Origin: Candidatus Woesearchaeota archaeon
GTDB lineage: Archaea; Nanobdellota; Nanobdellia; Woesearchaeales; GW2011-AR9
Direction of reading: 5' to 3'
DNA: 64,000 bases
NCBI GenBank assembly: GCA_018696595.1
Contig: JABHQW010000008.1
Coordinates: 96,001 to 160,000 of the forward strand
Part shown: positions 40,562 through 48,635 of the stretch, in pieces
Layout of the letters: each line of letters starts with the position of its first letter
How positions within the stretch are numbered: the first letter of the stretch is position 1
Program-made: the position numbers and the translations under genes
The notes under the pieces: generated by a model
What the model was told of the DNA's origin: nothing
Seen by the model: the letters and a program-made list of their open reading frames with translations, nothing else
The model's database searches: none

Positions 40562-41461
40562 ATGGGAATATATGAAGAAATAGCATCAAACAAAAGAAGA
40601 TCGTACCTATTGATTTTTGCATTTCTAATTTTTATTACATTTGTTGGCTATGTTGTTGGATTCTTTTACGGAAGCGGTTACTTTGGTATTGGTCTAGCAT
40701 TAGTTATTGGAATCATTTACTTTCTAATTAGTTATTATGGGGGAGCTAACGCAATTCTAGCCATGACTAAAGCTAAAGAAGCAACAAAACCAAAATACAC
40801 TTACTTGATAAACACAGTAGAAGGATTAGCAATTGCAGCAGGATTAGCAAAACCACCAAAGGTTTATGTTATCGAAGATTCAGCATTAAACGCTTTCGCT
40901 ACTGGTAGAGATCCTGAACATTCTTCAATCACAGTTACAACTGGATTACTTGAAAAATTAACCAAATTAGAATTAGAAGGAGTTATTGCCCATGAAATGT
41001 CACACATAAAAAACTTCGATATTAGGGTAATGATGTTAGCAGCAGTAATGGTTGGATTAACAGTTTTACTTTCTGACTTTTTGTTGCGTAGTTTCTTATG
41101 GGGCCGAGGAGGAAGAAGCCGTGAGAATAACCAAATGACTGCCGTTTTTATTATTGTAGGATTAGCTTTAGCAATTCTTGCACCATTAGTTGGAGAAGCA
41201 ATCAAGTTAGCTATTTCCCGTAAGAGAGAATATCTTGCTGATGCATCTGGGGCCTTGTTAACCAGATATCCAAAAGGTTTAGCTGATGCCCTTAAGAAAA
41301 TTAGAAGTGATCCTGATCCATTAGTTGACCATGCTAATAAAGCCACAGCACATCTGTTCATTTCTACCCCTTTTAGAAAATCGAAGAAGTCTTTTATGAA
41401 GAAATTGTTTTCTACACACCCACCAATTGATCAGCGGATTAAAAAGTTAGAAAATATGTAA
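40562..41461 (+). CDS. htpX: HtpX zinc metalloprotease (M48)
   Basis: 'NAFATGR', 'HEMSH', 'SRKREYLAD', 'STHPP'. Confidence 0.96.
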   Translation: MGIYEEIASNKRRSYLLIFAFLIFITFVGYVVGFFYGSGYFGIGLALVIGIIYFLISYYGGANAILAMTKAKEATKPKYTYLINTVEGLAIAAGLAKPPKVYVIEDSALNAFATGRDPEHSSITVTTGLLEKLTKLELEGVIAHEMSHIKNFDIRVMMLAAVMVGLTVLLSDFLLRSFLWGRGGRSRENNQMTAVFIIVGLALAILAPLVGEAIKLAISRKREYLADASGALLTRYPKGLADALKKIRSDPDPLVDHANKATAHLFISTPFRKSKKSFMKKLFSTHPPIDQRIKKLENM

Positions 41462-41524
41462 AATCTATTTTTATCAAATATTTTGTTAGATTTTTTAAAT
41501 ACAGGCCGTTTCTACACTAATATT

Positions 41525-41588
41525 ACCCAGCGTTAGTACTTCCCTTGTGAGACGATGATCAAGGGCGTTAAACGTTGGGTTCATAATC
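41525..41588 (+). ncRNA. Candidate H/ACA-type guide sRNA with K-loop
   Basis: 10-bp basal stem 41525-34/41571-80; internal pocket; upper stem ending in a K-loop (GUGA...AUGAUC); AUA at 41583-85; TATA-like tttaaata at 41494-501; pocket complementary to CGCC-UG-GGAAGUAC. Confidence 0.6.
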
Positions 41589-42918
41589 CTTTCAAATTTT
41601 CTTTAAAATATTCTTTCTTCTCCTTAATCGCTACAGGAGCAGAACCGCCATGCCAAGTAAATCTAGGACGCATTTGTACAGGAAAAATTCTTTCATTAGC
41701 ATCATCAAAGATTACTGCTGCACCTTTAACTCTAGGAAGCATATCAATTTCATGTTCCAAACCTTGCCGCATATAACTTTGAGTTAACATCCCTAAAGCA
41801 TCAACATCCATCCTTGCAGTTAGACGATGAGCCAAAACAGTATCAGATTGAGTCATAACATCTGTATGGATCTTAGCGGGCTGTTGAGTTGCCAATATTA
41901 AAGAAATCCCTGGTTGCCTACCTTCTCTTAGAATCGTAATGAGAGCATCAGAAGCGGCAGTCTTACCATCATGAGGCAACAATTCATGTGCTTCATCAAT
42001 CGCAATCCAAACTAATGGTTCTTCCATTTTTTGTTCAACATCTTTAGAGAAGTAGTGCATTGCGGCATCTACTGTTTTAAATTCTTCAGTCTTTCTTGCT
42101 AACATTCTTTGATTGAATAAAGTTTTACTGATTAGTCCTACAACTAAAGCTTTAATTTCCCAACCGGAAGACATTGTTGCATAAGGAGAAACGTCTAAAA
42201 CTGTAACTTGACCACCTTGAACAATATCTTTCAGAGGTGTTCCTTCTTTAGAAAAAACACCCCATCCTTTAGCTTTCTCAAATTGGTTTGTAACAACATT
42301 TCTGACAACTTTTTCACTTTCTTCATCTGCTTTAACAAATTGCATAATTGCATCAATTTCATAACTTTCTCCTTTTTCTTTTAATTGGTGGGTTGCTTTT
42401 GTAATTAAAACTCCTTCGGCTGAATTTGGATTAAGAGCAAATGCTTTACACCAATCCTCGCTATCAACATCTAAAGGCCTAATTGAAAAAGGAAAATCTG
42501 TAGGGATGCCTTCATCTTTGTATTTGTAATAAAATCCTGAAGGAGTATAAATCTTAACATCTAACCCCTTGGGATCGAAATTCCATTTCTTAACTAAATC
42601 GGCATCTTGGAAATTTGGATACTTCATGGTCCAATAAATCCCCATCGTATCTAAAAGAACAATTGATAAGTTTTGTTTTATTTCTGGTTCTAAATCAGCA
42701 AGACCTTCTGCGATTGAACCCATAGTGTAAGATTTTCCACTCCCTCGTTTTCCAACGATAAAAACAACGTGAGCACTAGCCACATCTAGATAAACAGGAT
42801 TAGATAAAGAAGTGGTCTGACCCATCTTAACGTACTGTTTAGCTATAAGAACGGTTCCCCTTTTACCAAACTTCTCCACATTCTTTTTACTTCTTCCAAT
42901 AATAACATCAAACACCAT
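41581..42918 (-). CDS. HerA/FtsK-superfamily (DUF87-like) ATPase lacking a HAS barrel
   Basis: Walker A 'GKRGSGKS', 'LDTMG', 'IDEAHE', 'REGRQPG', 'ATQQP'. Confidence 0.88.
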   Translation of the reverse strand: MVFDVIIGRSKKNVEKFGKRGTVLIAKQYVKMGQTTSLSNPVYLDVASAHVVFIVGKRGSGKSYTMGSIAEGLADLEPEIKQNLSIVLLDTMGIYWTMKYPNFQDADLVKKWNFDPKGLDVKIYTPSGFYYKYKDEGIPTDFPFSIRPLDVDSEDWCKAFALNPNSAEGVLITKATHQLKEKGESYEIDAIMQFVKADEESEKVVRNVVTNQFEKAKGWGVFSKEGTPLKDIVQGGQVTVLDVSPYATMSSGWEIKALVVGLISKTLFNQRMLARKTEEFKTVDAAMHYFSKDVEQKMEEPLVWIAIDEAHELLPHDGKTAASDALITILREGRQPGISLILATQQPAKIHTDVMTQSDTVLAHRLTARMDVDALGMLTQSYMRQGLEHEIDMLPRVKGAAVIFDDANERIFPVQMRPRFTWHGGSAPVAIKEKKEYFKENLKGL

Positions 42919-45101: not shown

Positions 45102-45184
45102 GATTATGAAGCCCGCTTCACTAACTCCCAAGTTCAAAGCTTGCATTTAGCGTAAGCTCCCCAGGGTACTCTCGTGACGGGCTT
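45102..45184. ncRNA. Candidate structured small RNA (or MITE-like element)
   Basis: GC-rich island with terminal stem aagcccg(45109-15)/cgggctt(45178-84), tcac/gtga, and inner hairpin agcttgc/gtaagct; minus-strand TATA at 45207-14; flanked by a 10-bp direct repeat tagttttcta. Confidence 0.45.
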
Positions 45185-47930: not shown

Positions 47931-48635
47931 ATGGTTACCAGAACATCTCAAGAAAGATTTAGGACAGATAAAGGAGTCTTTGACGCATTTACTAAAAGAA
48001 ACCTATTTGAGTTACAAAGTAGAGGATTTTACGATGAAATGGTTGGTCCTCTTTTTGTTGGTAAAGAAAGTAATGTGTTCATTGCAAAAAGTAAAAGTAA
48101 GAAAGTAATCATTAAGATCTATCGCGTTCAAAATGCTGATTTTAAAAGAATGTTTCAATATATCAAACAAGACCCACGTTATGATTTTCTTAAAAATAAG
48201 CGCAGAGAAATTATTTTTTCTTGGACACAACGAGAATATAAAAACTTGATAAAAGCAGAAAGAGGAAAAGTTAAGGTTCCAAAAACAATTGTTTGGAAGT
48301 ATAACATTCTAATTGAAGAATTTATTGGTGATGAAAAACCAGCACCACCATTAAAAGATTTGTATCCTGAAGACCCAGAAAAGTTCTTTAAAGAAATTGT
48401 TAAAGAAATGAGAAAGTTGTATAAGATTGGTCTTGTTCATGGAGACTTGTCTGCGTTTAATATTTTAAATTATAACGATAAACCAGTATTAATTGACTTT
48501 TCACAATCAACTTTAGTTAAAACACCAAACTCAGAAGAATTACTTTTGCGAGATGTGAAGAATGTCTTGCAATTTTTTAAAAAATTAGGAATTAAAGCAG
48601 AAATTGAAGAAATAGTGGAAAAGATTAAAAAGTAA
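47931..48635 (+). CDS. rio1: RIO1 serine/threonine kinase
   Basis: 'GKESNVF', 'IKIYR', 'WTQREYKNL', 'LVHGDLSAFNIL', 'LIDFSQS'. Confidence 0.95.
   Translation: MVTRTSQERFRTDKGVFDAFTKRNLFELQSRGFYDEMVGPLFVGKESNVFIAKSKSKKVIIKIYRVQNADFKRMFQYIKQDPRYDFLKNKRREIIFSWTQREYKNLIKAERGKVKVPKTIVWKYNILIEEFIGDEKPAPPLKDLYPEDPEKFFKEIVKEMRKLYKIGLVHGDLSAFNILNYNDKPVLIDFSQSTLVKTPNSEELLLRDVKNVLQFFKKLGIKAEIEEIVEKIKK

What the first reader, a model, noticed from the sequence alone, without database searches (positions are those of the whole stretch)
41525..41588. Unannotated K-loop hairpin RNA with a bipartite guide complementary to 16S rRNA helix 27 (candidate H/ACA-type guide)
Seen: a GC-rich island between htpX and the DUF87 ATPase folds on the + strand. 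It has a 10-bp basal stem (41525-34/41571-80, one G-U), an internal loop, and an upper stem c-g/u-a/u-a/G-C/U.U/G.A/A.G closing a K-loop (GUGA gacg AUGAUC, with the usual C-G pair swapped to G-C). An AUA follows at 41583-85, and a TATA-like tttaaata sits about 26 nt upstream. The pocket strands GUACUUCC (41536-43) and GGCG (41564-67) would pair with 5'-CGCC-UG-GGAAGUAC-3', leaving UG unpaired at the upper stem. Known: CCGCCUGGGAAGUAC is, from my recollection, a conserved archaeal 16S segment near E. coli U884, and this geometry is that of L7Ae/Cbf5 pseudouridylation guides. Inference: a stand-alone guide RNA in a DPANN archaeon. Caveat: the pocket-to-ANA distance is 19 nt versus the usual 14-16, so it may be a variant class or an rRNA-folding chaperone.
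Basis: partly seen in the sequence, partly recalled or inferred. Interest (0 to 1): 0.78.

Follow-up and report, generated by a model that had tools for sequence, protein, structure and literature searches.

The report
H/ACA-type guide RNA with UCA box
The hairpin is a real, separately transcribed small RNA of a Woesearchaeota (DPANN) archaeon, built like the guide RNAs that direct pseudouridine formation but with UCA in place of the usual ACA box; the proposed 16S rRNA target remains only a candidate.

Summary
Window 41525-41583 (+) folds as described: lower stem, internal loop, upper stem and terminal K-loop.

A covariance model finds one copy in 26 of 113 genomes of the same family. It finds none in 150 genomes of other families of the order. 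11 of 15 base pairs show compensatory changes. About 23 of 26 copies have a TATA box 24-32 nt upstream and a T-rich tail.

- The AUA "box" is not conserved. UCA at 41581-83 is invariant in 26/26. A second, order-wide H/ACA RNA in the same window (45107-45184, minus strand, helix-69 guide) carries ACA in six other families and UCA in this family, at the same place. UCA is therefore this lineage's ACA-box equivalent.
- The CC/GG nucleotides used as guide are the covarying base of the upper stem.

The 16S site exists (CGCC-UG-GGGAGUAC, one G·U). It is the best bipartite match in the whole genome (shuffle P about 0.01). Only about 9 of 26 homologues keep the complementarity, although the 16S site was identical, apart from one purine, in all six genomes with a 16S. 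The pairing also needs a non-canonical geometry.

Cbf5, Nop10 and L7Ae are present; Gar1 was not found.

Verdict: an H/ACA-type sRNA, a new variant of a known kind. Its target is unresolved.

The parts
41494..41501 (+). TATA-like promoter box (TTTAAATA), 23 nt before the hairpin
   Evidence: Read. An equivalent TTTTTAAA-type box lies 24-32 nt upstream of the hairpin in about 23 of 26 homologous loci. Function as a promoter is inferred.
41525..41534 (+). Lower stem (H1), 5' strand
   Evidence: Pairs with 41571-80. The 8 inner pairs are conserved in 26 sequences, and 6 of 9 modelled pairs have changes on both sides.
41535..41541 (+). 5' strand of the internal loop (pocket), AGUACUU.
   Evidence: This is the most variable part of the RNA across the family. 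ACUUCC is conserved in a 9-species subgroup.
41542..41548 (+). Upper stem (H2), 5' strand: CCCUUG plus U of a U·U pair
   Evidence: Pairs with 41559-65. 5 of 6 modelled pairs have compensatory changes, including C-G to U-A at 41543/41564.
41549..41558 (+). K-loop: G·A / A·G tandem (41549-50 with 41557-58) closing a 6-nt loop (7 nt in most homologues)
   Evidence: The four GA nucleotides are invariant in 26 of 26. The layout equals the D'/C'-type K-loop described for archaeal H/ACA RNAs (PMC7991803). L7Ae binding is inferred.
41559..41565 (+). Upper stem (H2), 3' strand
41566..41570 (+). 3' strand of the internal loop (pocket), CGUUA. GUUA is invariant.
   Evidence: GUUA is present in 26 of 26 homologues. 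The helix-69 guide RNA of the same window has the same N-GUUA directly below its upper stem.
41571..41580 (+). Lower stem (H1), 3' strand
41581..41583 (+). UCA box, the lineage's equivalent of the ACA box. It overlaps the TGA stop of the HerA-like gene on the other strand.
   Evidence: UCA is present in 26 of 26 homologues, including 10 loci without the HerA-like neighbour. In the orthologous helix-69 guide the same position reads ACA in 6 other families and UCA in 9 of 9 members of this family.
41590..41604 (+). T-rich stretch, likely archaeal terminator region
   Evidence: T-rich sequence follows UCA in nearly all homologues, often as UCAUUUUU. This is inferred; no transcript data were available.
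45107..45184 (-). Second H/ACA-type RNA ('RNA-B', K-turn version), the calibrating comparison for the UCA box. Pocket GAGAGU(A)/AGUUA is complementary to 23S helix 69.
   Evidence: Found in 23 of 40 relatives, including 13 of 17 families. Covariation: 0 of 500 shuffles. Pocket strands are invariant and H69 is invariant in 6 LSUs.
40562..41461 (+). Upstream neighbour: M48 (HtpX-type) peptidase gene
   Evidence: Pfam PF01435, E = 3.9e-33. It is the neighbour in only 9 of 26 loci.
41581..42918 (-). Downstream convergent neighbour: DUF87/HerA-type ATPase gene
   Evidence: Pfam PF01935, E = 2e-14. It is the neighbour in 16 of 26 loci.

Best explanation
Window 41525-41583 (+) encodes a stand-alone small RNA of about 60-65 nt, of the archaeal single-hairpin box H/ACA type. 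It is transcribed from its own TATA box and ends in the T-rich stretch after the hairpin.

Inferred mechanism, by analogy with solved archaeal H/ACA RNPs:
- L7Ae binds the terminal K-loop.
- The PUA domain of Cbf5 (with Nop10) holds the lower stem and the single-stranded UCA that follows it. UCA is this family's version of the ACA box.
- The 7 x 5 nt internal loop lies over the Cbf5 active site as a pocket that can pair with a substrate RNA.

Which substrate is not settled. In this genome the best candidate is 16S rRNA CGCC-UG-GGGAGUAC. There the U equivalent to E. coli U884, at the 5' base of helix 27, would become pseudouridine. I put that target at about 30%. It requires opening two C-G pairs of the upper stem, and it is kept in only about a third of the homologues. 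Otherwise the RNA is an orphan guide or acts on a substrate I could not identify.
For: Structure:
- The fold has z = -3.0.
- The strongly matching homologues (26 genomes, E 2.6e-23 to 1.1e-10) are single-copy, out of 113 genomes of the family searched. None was found in 150 genomes of other families.
- 11 of 15 pairs have changes on both sides, and 0 of 500 shuffles reach the observed covariation.
- Many G·U pairs and the GA motifs fix the + strand. The reverse-strand model scores about 20 bits against 50-90.

Gene-like context:
- A TATA box lies 24-32 nt upstream and a T-rich tail follows in most loci.
- The neighbours vary.

Class:
- The K-loop has invariant tandem GA and a 7-nt loop in most homologues (6 nt here), as described for archaeal H/ACA RNAs (PMC7991803).
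- The upper stem has 6 Watson-Crick pairs, and 15 nt separate it from the box. These are the canonical values (PMC2377435).
- UCA is invariant in 26 of 26.
- The order-wide helix-69 guide in the same window has ACA in 6 families and UCA in all 9 members of this family at the same position.

Proteins:
- Cbf5 carries DKCLD, TruB_N, TruB_C_2 and PUA domains; Nop10 is present; L7Ae is present.
- In the family, Cbf5 is found in 109 of 113 genomes and Nop10 in 105 of 113.

Target:
- The 4+8 bp match to 16S is the top hit in the rRNAs, in all GC-rich islands and in the whole genome on both strands.
- Shuffled pockets reach that score in 1% of trials.
- Within the 9 species that keep the match, pocket columns are 98% conserved against 85% for stem columns. 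These species interleave with non-matching ones by RNA backbone type.
Against: - The defining ANA box is not met literally: it reads UCA.
- Gar1 was not found even at E <= 10 in a genome that is 97% complete.
- No transcript or protein-binding data were available.

Against the 16S target:
- 16-17 of 26 homologues have pockets that cannot pair with it, although the site is the same apart from one purine (GGGAGUAC here, GGAAGUAC in the other five) in all six 16S genes, three of them from such genomes.
- The pairing leaves only 4 Watson-Crick pairs plus U·U between pocket and K-loop, and 17 nt to UCA. Such values were non-functional in Pyrococcus reconstitutions (PMC2377435). Spacings of 17-19 nt did work with an ACA box in the Haloferax/Methanocaldococcus system (PMC7075261).
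- One homologue (G208) changes C-G to U-A at 41543/41564. That keeps the intramolecular pair but would place an A·C mismatch next to the target U.
- The invariant GUUA is not used by this target.
- For the subgroup consensus (4+6 bp) the shuffle P is only about 0.07.
- No rRNA site is matched by all pocket variants.
Confidence: 0.7

Rival explanations
1. It is an H/ACA-type RNP RNA that does not guide pseudouridylation of 16S helix 27. Either it is an orphan or fast-evolving guide whose real substrate uses the invariant GUUA (pairing with a UAAC-U site), or it acts as a non-modifying pre-rRNA chaperone in the manner of eukaryotic snR30/U17.
For: - GUUA is invariant while the 5' pocket strand is the most variable part of the RNA.
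- The helix-69 guide uses the same N-GUUA, directly below its upper stem, to pair with UAAC. This suggests common descent and a UAAC-type anchor.
- With the upper stem closed, the geometry is canonical: 6 bp and 15 nt.
- One homologue (G009) matches the 16S helix-31 loop UAAC-UU-UACGCA with 4+6 bp.
- Most homologues have no helix-27 complementarity.
Against: - With the closed-stem pocket I found no rRNA, spacer, tRNA-like or GC-island target in this genome.
- No site is shared by the six genomes that have rRNA sequences.
- The helix-31 match occurs in one of about 12 pocket types and is not significant on its own.
- A pattern search of G016's genome gave no more hits than the reversed control.
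Confidence: 0.4
2. It is an L7Ae-binding K-loop RNA with a function outside the H/ACA system, for example a regulator or decoy of L7Ae, or a scaffold for another protein.
For: - The K-loop is the best-conserved element.
- There is no literal ANA box, and Gar1 was not found.
- Other stand-alone K-turn RNAs have been noted in this genome (unchecked notes).
Against: - The whole architecture matches H/ACA RNAs: lower stem of 8-9 bp, two-sided loop, 6-bp upper stem, a box one nucleotide after the stem, and 15-nt spacing.
- The tail is the same NCA box, in the same position, as in the bona fide helix-69 guide.
Confidence: 0.12
3. It is a cis element of a neighbouring gene, that is a terminator or 3'-UTR structure of the HerA-like or HtpX gene, and not a separate RNA gene.
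For: - It sits between two convergent genes.
- UCA overlaps the HerA-like stop codon.
- The HerA-like gene is adjacent in 16 of 26 loci.
Against: - 10 of 26 loci lack the HerA-like gene and 17 of 26 lack HtpX.
- It has its own TATA box at a fixed distance.
- The strand-specific features (G·U pairs, GA motifs) are on the strand opposite to the HerA-like gene.
Confidence: 0.03
4. It is a box C/D sRNA, a tRNA half or another known RNA family.
For: The apical motif resembles a D'/C' pair. Many homologues read GUGAUGA, a perfect C-box string.
Against: - There is no terminal C and D box pair at guide distance, read.
- Rfam gives no hit even at E <= 10.
- ARAGORN finds nothing.
Confidence: 0.02

Closest known systems
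Archaeal single-hairpin box H/ACA sRNAs with a K-loop (Pyrococcus Pab91, Pab160/Pf9; PMC2377435, PMC7991803)
   Same: - One hairpin with a lower stem of 8-10 bp and a two-sided internal loop of 5-11 nt per strand.
- A 6-bp upper stem.
- A terminal K-loop with tandem G·A and a 7-nt loop.
- A conserved trinucleotide just 3' of the lower stem, 15 nt from the pocket.
- The genome encodes Cbf5 (PUA), Nop10 and L7Ae.
   Different: - The box is UCA, not ANA.
- Gar1 was not found.
- There is no sequence similarity and no Rfam hit.
- The 5' pocket strand is poorly conserved among orthologues, whereas guide strands are normally the best-conserved part.
The helix-69 guide of the same window (45107-45184, minus), functionally like stem-loop 2 of Haloferax volcanii sR-h45 (PMC7075261)
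   Same: - The same CCC/GGG base of the upper stem and the same N-GUUA start of the 3' pocket strand.
- The same one-nucleotide spacer plus UCA-UAAUC tail in this genome.
- Own TATA box.
- This suggests paralogy, which is an inference.
   Different: - RNA-B has a K-turn with an extra apical stem, 17 nt to the box, and invariant pocket strands.
- RNA-B has a universal target (H69, UNUN layout) and an order-wide distribution.
- The RNA studied here has a K-loop, 15 nt to the box and a variable 5' pocket strand, and is limited to part of one family.
Nanoarchaeum equitans 159-nt two-hairpin H/ACA sRNA (Randau 2012, PMC3491384)
   Same: A DPANN archaeon with very few H/ACA RNAs, K-turn elements in the hairpins, and no canonical H box.
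   Different: The Nanoarchaeum RNA has two hairpins and ACA motifs. No sequence relation was tested here.
Pyrobaculum atypical H/ACA-like sRNAs (Bernick et al. 2012; cited in PMC7991803, not read here)
   Same: A precedent for lineage-specific departures from the canonical H/ACA layout, including the ACA element.
   Different: As I recall, those lack the lower stem and ACA altogether. Here both the stem and a box are kept, and only the first box nucleotide differs.

Membership tests
Archaeal box H/ACA guide sRNA | Hairpin with lower stem (at least 7 bp), two-sided internal loop (5-11 nt per strand) and upper stem (at least 5 bp) | tested here: met
   The lower stem has 8-10 bp, the loop is 7 x 5 nt (7-8 x 6 in homologues), and the upper stem has 6 bp plus U·U. 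Covariation was seen in 11 of 15 pairs.
Archaeal box H/ACA guide sRNA | K-turn or K-loop in the apical part, 5-6 bp above the pocket | tested here: met
Tandem G·A/A·G is invariant in 26 of 26, with a 6-7 nt loop and 6 Watson-Crick pairs down to the loop when the stem is closed.
Archaeal box H/ACA guide sRNA | ANA (usually ACA) trinucleotide directly 3' of the lower stem | tested here: not met
Mitigating: the orthologous helix-69 guide shows an ACA to UCA replacement at the same position in this family. The Cbf5 PUA domain is known to bind both ACA and tRNA CCA (PMC7991803).
Archaeal box H/ACA guide sRNA | 14-16 nt between pocket top (target U) and the box | tested here: met
   15 nt with the upper stem closed. 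For the proposed 16S target it is 17 nt to UCA, or 19 nt to AUA (counted).
Archaeal box H/ACA guide sRNA | Bipartite complementarity of both pocket strands to an rRNA or tRNA site, leaving 5'-UN-3' unpaired, conserved among orthologues | tested here: inconclusive
   In this genome a 4+8 bp match to the 16S is the best genome-wide hit, P about 0.01. It is kept in only about 9 of 26 orthologues, and no common site fits the rest.
Archaeal box H/ACA guide sRNA | Core proteins Cbf5, Nop10, L7Ae and Gar1 encoded | tested here: inconclusive
   Cbf5 with PUA and Nop10 are present, and L7Ae is present. Gar1 gave no Pfam match even at E <= 10. At the default cutoff (E <= 0.001) the Gar1 model missed one of four control archaea.
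Archaeal box H/ACA guide sRNA | Binding of L7Ae and Cbf5-Nop10; pseudouridine at the predicted site | not testable with these tools
   This needs gel shifts, reconstitution and pseudouridine mapping.
Box C/D sRNA | Terminal C (RUGAUGA) and D (CUGA) boxes flanking about 12-nt guides, plus an internal D'/C' pair | tested here: not met
   Only the internal D'/C'-like K-loop exists. There is no C box near 41528-34 and no D box near 41574-77. Rfam gave no hit.

The most novel reading that the evidence does not exclude
This Woesearchaeota family runs a reduced H/ACA system with three features. The box read by the Cbf5 PUA domain has shifted from ACA to UCA, a general NCA rule that also covers tRNA CCA. 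Gar1 has been lost. A family-specific guide, derived from the helix-69 guide, places a pseudouridine at the 5' base of 16S helix 27 (E. coli U884), a site not known to me to be modified in any organism.
Probability: 0.2. Interest if true: 0.65.

Novelty: new variant of a known kind. Interest (0 to 1): 0.5.

Why it matters
H/ACA guide RNAs are almost unknown in DPANN archaea and are missed by Rfam. This report gives a covariance-supported family and an internal comparison.

The comparison shows that the "defining" ACA box reads UCA throughout one family, in two different RNAs. Three consequences follow:
- Searches that require ANA will miss such guides.
- It gives a natural experiment on what the Cbf5 PUA domain reads: ACA, UCA or CCA.
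- With no detectable Gar1, it points to a minimal RNP.

If the 16S helix-27 target is real, it would add a new rRNA pseudouridylation site next to the decoding-centre switch helix. That part is not established.

Tried and rejected
- **Rfam.** The gathering scan of the window and the E <= 10 scan of the locus gave no family.
- **ARAGORN.** No tRNA-like gene was found.
- **Common rRNA target.** I scanned SSU and LSU of six genomes with each genome's own pocket, using upper-stem lengths of 4-8 and requiring hits in homologous columns. Only the three genomes with the same pocket shared sites.
- **Spacers, flanks and rRNA insertions.** Scanning the six operons with unpaired gaps of 2-4 nt gave nothing consistent.
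- **Closed-stem pocket against the whole genome and all intergenic GC-rich islands.** Hits lay only inside or antisense to ORFs.
- **G016's predicted target in G016's genome.** There were no more matches than the reversed control.
- **Helix 69 and the helix-31 loop as targets through the GUUA anchor.** Helix 69 does not fit any 5' strand. Helix 31 fits only G009.
- **An LSU site matching G014 (UAACGCU-UU-GGAAG).** It is not conserved in this genome.
- **More K-loop hairpins in GC-rich intergenic islands of this genome.** This RNA was the only H/ACA-like one; K-turn types were not covered by that scan.
- **The rio1-dnaG two-hairpin H/ACA RNA reported for other Woesearchaeota.** In this genome rio1 (47931-48635) is followed directly by another ORF, with no intergenic island.
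- **Literature.** Searches found no paper on Woesearchaeota H/ACA RNAs or on a UCA box.

Full report
**1. The observation.**

- A 10-bp basal stem, 41525-34 with 41571-80, has one G·U.
- It is followed by an internal loop and an upper stem.
- The apical motif is GUGA, a 6-nt loop, then (AU)GAUC. It gives tandem G·A and A·G, then U·U and G-C. This is the D'/C'-type K-loop with the closing pair swapped.

TTTAAATA lies at 41494-41501 and AUA at 41583-85. The + strand folds at -22.3 kcal/mol with z = -3.0, and 0 of 200 shuffles fold as well. The minus strand folds less well.

The flanking genes are an M48/HtpX peptidase (+) and a DUF87/HerA-type ATPase (-), and they are convergent. Rfam has no match, even at E <= 10. 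ARAGORN finds nothing.

**2. It is a conserved, structured, separately transcribed RNA.**

A blastn of 111 nt against relatives matched only the hairpin plus a few tail bases. I built a covariance model from eight sequences.
- It finds a single strong hit (E 2.6e-23 to 1.1e-10) in each of 26 genomes, including this one, among 113 genomes of the same family.
- It finds none in 150 genomes sampled from the other families of the order, with Infernal's stricter filters.
- It finds no second copy in this genome.

On the 26-sequence alignment, 90.9% of cells are paired and 11 of 15 pairs show changes on both sides. No shuffle out of 500 reaches the observed covariation, and slid controls collapse.

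Frequent G·U pairs and the GA motifs fix the + strand. The reverse complement scores about 20 bits against 48-91.

About 23 of 26 loci carry a TTTTTAAA-type TATA box 24-32 nt before the hairpin, and T-rich sequence right after it. The neighbours vary: the HerA-like gene is adjacent in 16 of 26 loci and HtpX in 9 of 26. It is therefore an independent gene and not a UTR element.

**3. Anatomy across the family.**

Invariant or nearly invariant:
- the inner 8 bp of the lower stem;
- the four K-loop GA nucleotides and most of the 7-nt loop;
- GUUA in the 3' strand of the internal loop (26/26);
- UCA one nucleotide after the lower stem (26/26).

These pairs are conserved, and 41543/41564 changes C-G to U-A in two sequences.

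With that stem closed, the RNA has 6 Watson-Crick pairs (plus U·U) between pocket and K-loop, and 15 nt between pocket and UCA. Muller et al. found 6 bp and 14-15 nt in functional Pyrococcus guides (PMC2377435). The review PMC7991803 gives 5-6 and 14-16.

The 5' strand of the loop is the most variable part of the molecule.

**4. Why UCA counts as the box.**

I checked it.
- It occurs in 23 of 40 relatives, including 13 of 17 families of the order.
- Its four helices are supported by covariation (0 of 500 shuffles).
- Its pocket strands GAGAGU(A) and RGUUA are invariant in 20 sequences.
- They are complementary to 23S helix 69, UAAC-UAUA-ACUCUC, which is identical in all six LSU genes examined.

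The four unpaired bases, UAUA, reproduce the UNUN layout. Stem-loop 2 of Haloferax sR-h45 uses that layout to make the two helix-69 pseudouridines (PMC7075261). This RNA is a bona fide H/ACA guide.

One nucleotide after its lower stem it reads as follows:
- ACA in six families;
- UCA in all nine members of the present family and in three other families;
- CCA in one family.

In this lineage the ACA box has therefore become UCA, and the RNA under study carries UCA in the same position. The Cbf5 PUA domain is known to bind both ACA of guides and CCA of tRNA (PMC7991803). Reading NCA is thus plausible, but it is untested.

**5. Proteins and organism.**

- The genome is 1.19 Mb, 32% G+C and 97% complete.
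- It encodes a Cbf5 with DKCLD, TruB_N, TruB_C_2 and PUA domains, and a 58-aa Nop10.
- It also encodes L7Ae.
- In the family, Cbf5 is found in 109 of 113 genomes and Nop10 in 105 of 113.
- Gar1 gave no Pfam match even at E <= 10. That model is weak on control archaea, so absence is not proven.
- Nep1/EMG1 was not found.
- The closest Cbf5 genes lie in records named Candidatus Woesearchaeota or Nanoarchaeota.

**6. The proposed 16S target.**

The 16S gene contains CGCC-UG-GGGAGUAC at positions 916-929. The pairing is topologically correct for an H/ACA pocket. The 3' strand GGCG pairs with CGCC, the 5' strand GUACUUCC pairs with GGGAGUAC (one U·G), and UG is left free. The equivalence to E. coli U884 rests on my memory of the E. 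coli sequence.

In favour:
- It is the best bipartite match in the rRNAs, among all GC-rich intergenic islands, and in the whole genome on both strands.
- Shuffled pocket strands reach its score in 1% of 2000 trials.
- Nine species from six genera keep ACUUCC and GGCG. In these, pocket columns are 98% conserved against 85% for stems. They are interleaved with non-matching species when clustered on the rest of the RNA. This hints that the pocket is old and maintained.

Against:
- 16-17 of 26 homologues cannot pair with the site. Apart from one purine (GGGAGUAC here, GGAAGUAC in the other five) the site is identical in all six 16S genes, three of them from such genomes.
- The subgroup consensus (4+6 bp) has a shuffle P of only 0.07.
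- The pairing opens two covarying C-G pairs. That leaves 4 Watson-Crick pairs to the K-loop and 17 nt to UCA, values that were inactive in Pyrococcus (PMC2377435). Spacings of 17-19 nt worked with an ACA box in the Haloferax/Methanocaldococcus system (PMC7075261).
- G208's U-A pair would put an A·C mismatch next to the target U.
- The invariant GUUA is left unexplained.

I put this target at about 30%.

**7. Other targets.**

No rRNA column is hit by all pocket variants. Spacers and rRNA insertions give nothing consistent. The closed-stem pocket has no credible target in this genome. G016's predicted target is not in G016's genome above control level.

The shared N-GUUA start of the 3' strand, the shared CCC/GGG stem base and the shared tail suggest that this RNA descends from the helix-69 guide. 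GUUA may still anchor it on a UAAC-U site. Only one homologue (G009) fits such a site, the 16S helix-31 loop, with 4+6 bp. That is not significant alone.

**8. Verdict.**

The hairpin is a genuine, family-restricted sRNA gene of the archaeal H/ACA type, with a lineage-specific UCA box. It works like an H/ACA guide scaffold (confidence about 0.7-0.75).

Strict membership fails on the ANA criterion, so I file it as a new variant of a known kind. The helix-27 target is a reasonable but unproven candidate.

Noticed in passing
window 45107-45184 (minus strand): A second H/ACA-type sRNA gene with a K-turn, its own TTTATATA box and a UCA tail. Its invariant pocket (GAGAGU / RGUUA) pairs with 23S helix 69 in the UNUN layout of Haloferax sR-h45 stem-loop 2. 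It is conserved in 13 of 17 families of the order. Its box is ACA in six families, UCA in this family and three others, and CCA in one.
   Followed up: yes
own 16S gene, G000:C6:197547-199112 (L001), 16S positions about 730-830: An AT-rich insertion of about 90 nt interrupts the conserved GGAUUAGAUACCC (790-loop) region of the 16S gene. It may be an rRNA intron or an expansion. Relatives also show extra sequence: the G255 16S has extra sequence right after GGCUGAA in helix 27, and three LSU genes are about 300 nt longer, with a break just after UUAAGGU next to helix 69.
   Followed up: no
G000 genome-wide: No Gar1 (PF04410, even at E <= 10) and no Nep1/EMG1 (PF03587) match, in a genome that is 97% complete and keeps Cbf5, Nop10 and L7Ae. 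This may be a three-protein H/ACA RNP.
   Followed up: partly
L034 (G009:C7:3490-3558): The G009 homologue of this RNA has a 5' pocket strand UGCGUA. Together with GUUA it matches the family's 16S helix-31 loop, UAAC-UU-UACGCA (4+6 bp). The unpaired U is the position homologous to the hypermodified pseudouridine of eukaryotic 18S (my alignment from memory). G009's own 16S is not assembled.
   Followed up: partly
G000 contigs C2, C3, C6, C7, C8 (for example C3:261992-262059, C8:51491-51556, C2:55782-55838; C3:334154-334230, C8:12847-12913; C3:284083-284215, C3:344181-344270): Several families of repeated GC-rich hairpin-forming islands lie in intergenic DNA of this 32% G+C genome. They may be further small RNAs or miniature repeat elements.
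   Followed up: no
G000, tRNA genes (ARAGORN): Only 14 tRNA genes were recognised, and several have long or non-canonical introns (Asn, Gly, Val, Ser, Ile). Many tRNA genes are probably missed because of unusual introns.
   Followed up: no
alignment A3 (RNA-B), columns 69 and 87: In the helix-69 guide, the nucleotide opposite the target U covaries loosely with the box. AGUUA goes with ACA in other families, and GGUUA goes with UCA, with two exceptions, this genome among them. The meaning is unknown.
   Followed up: no
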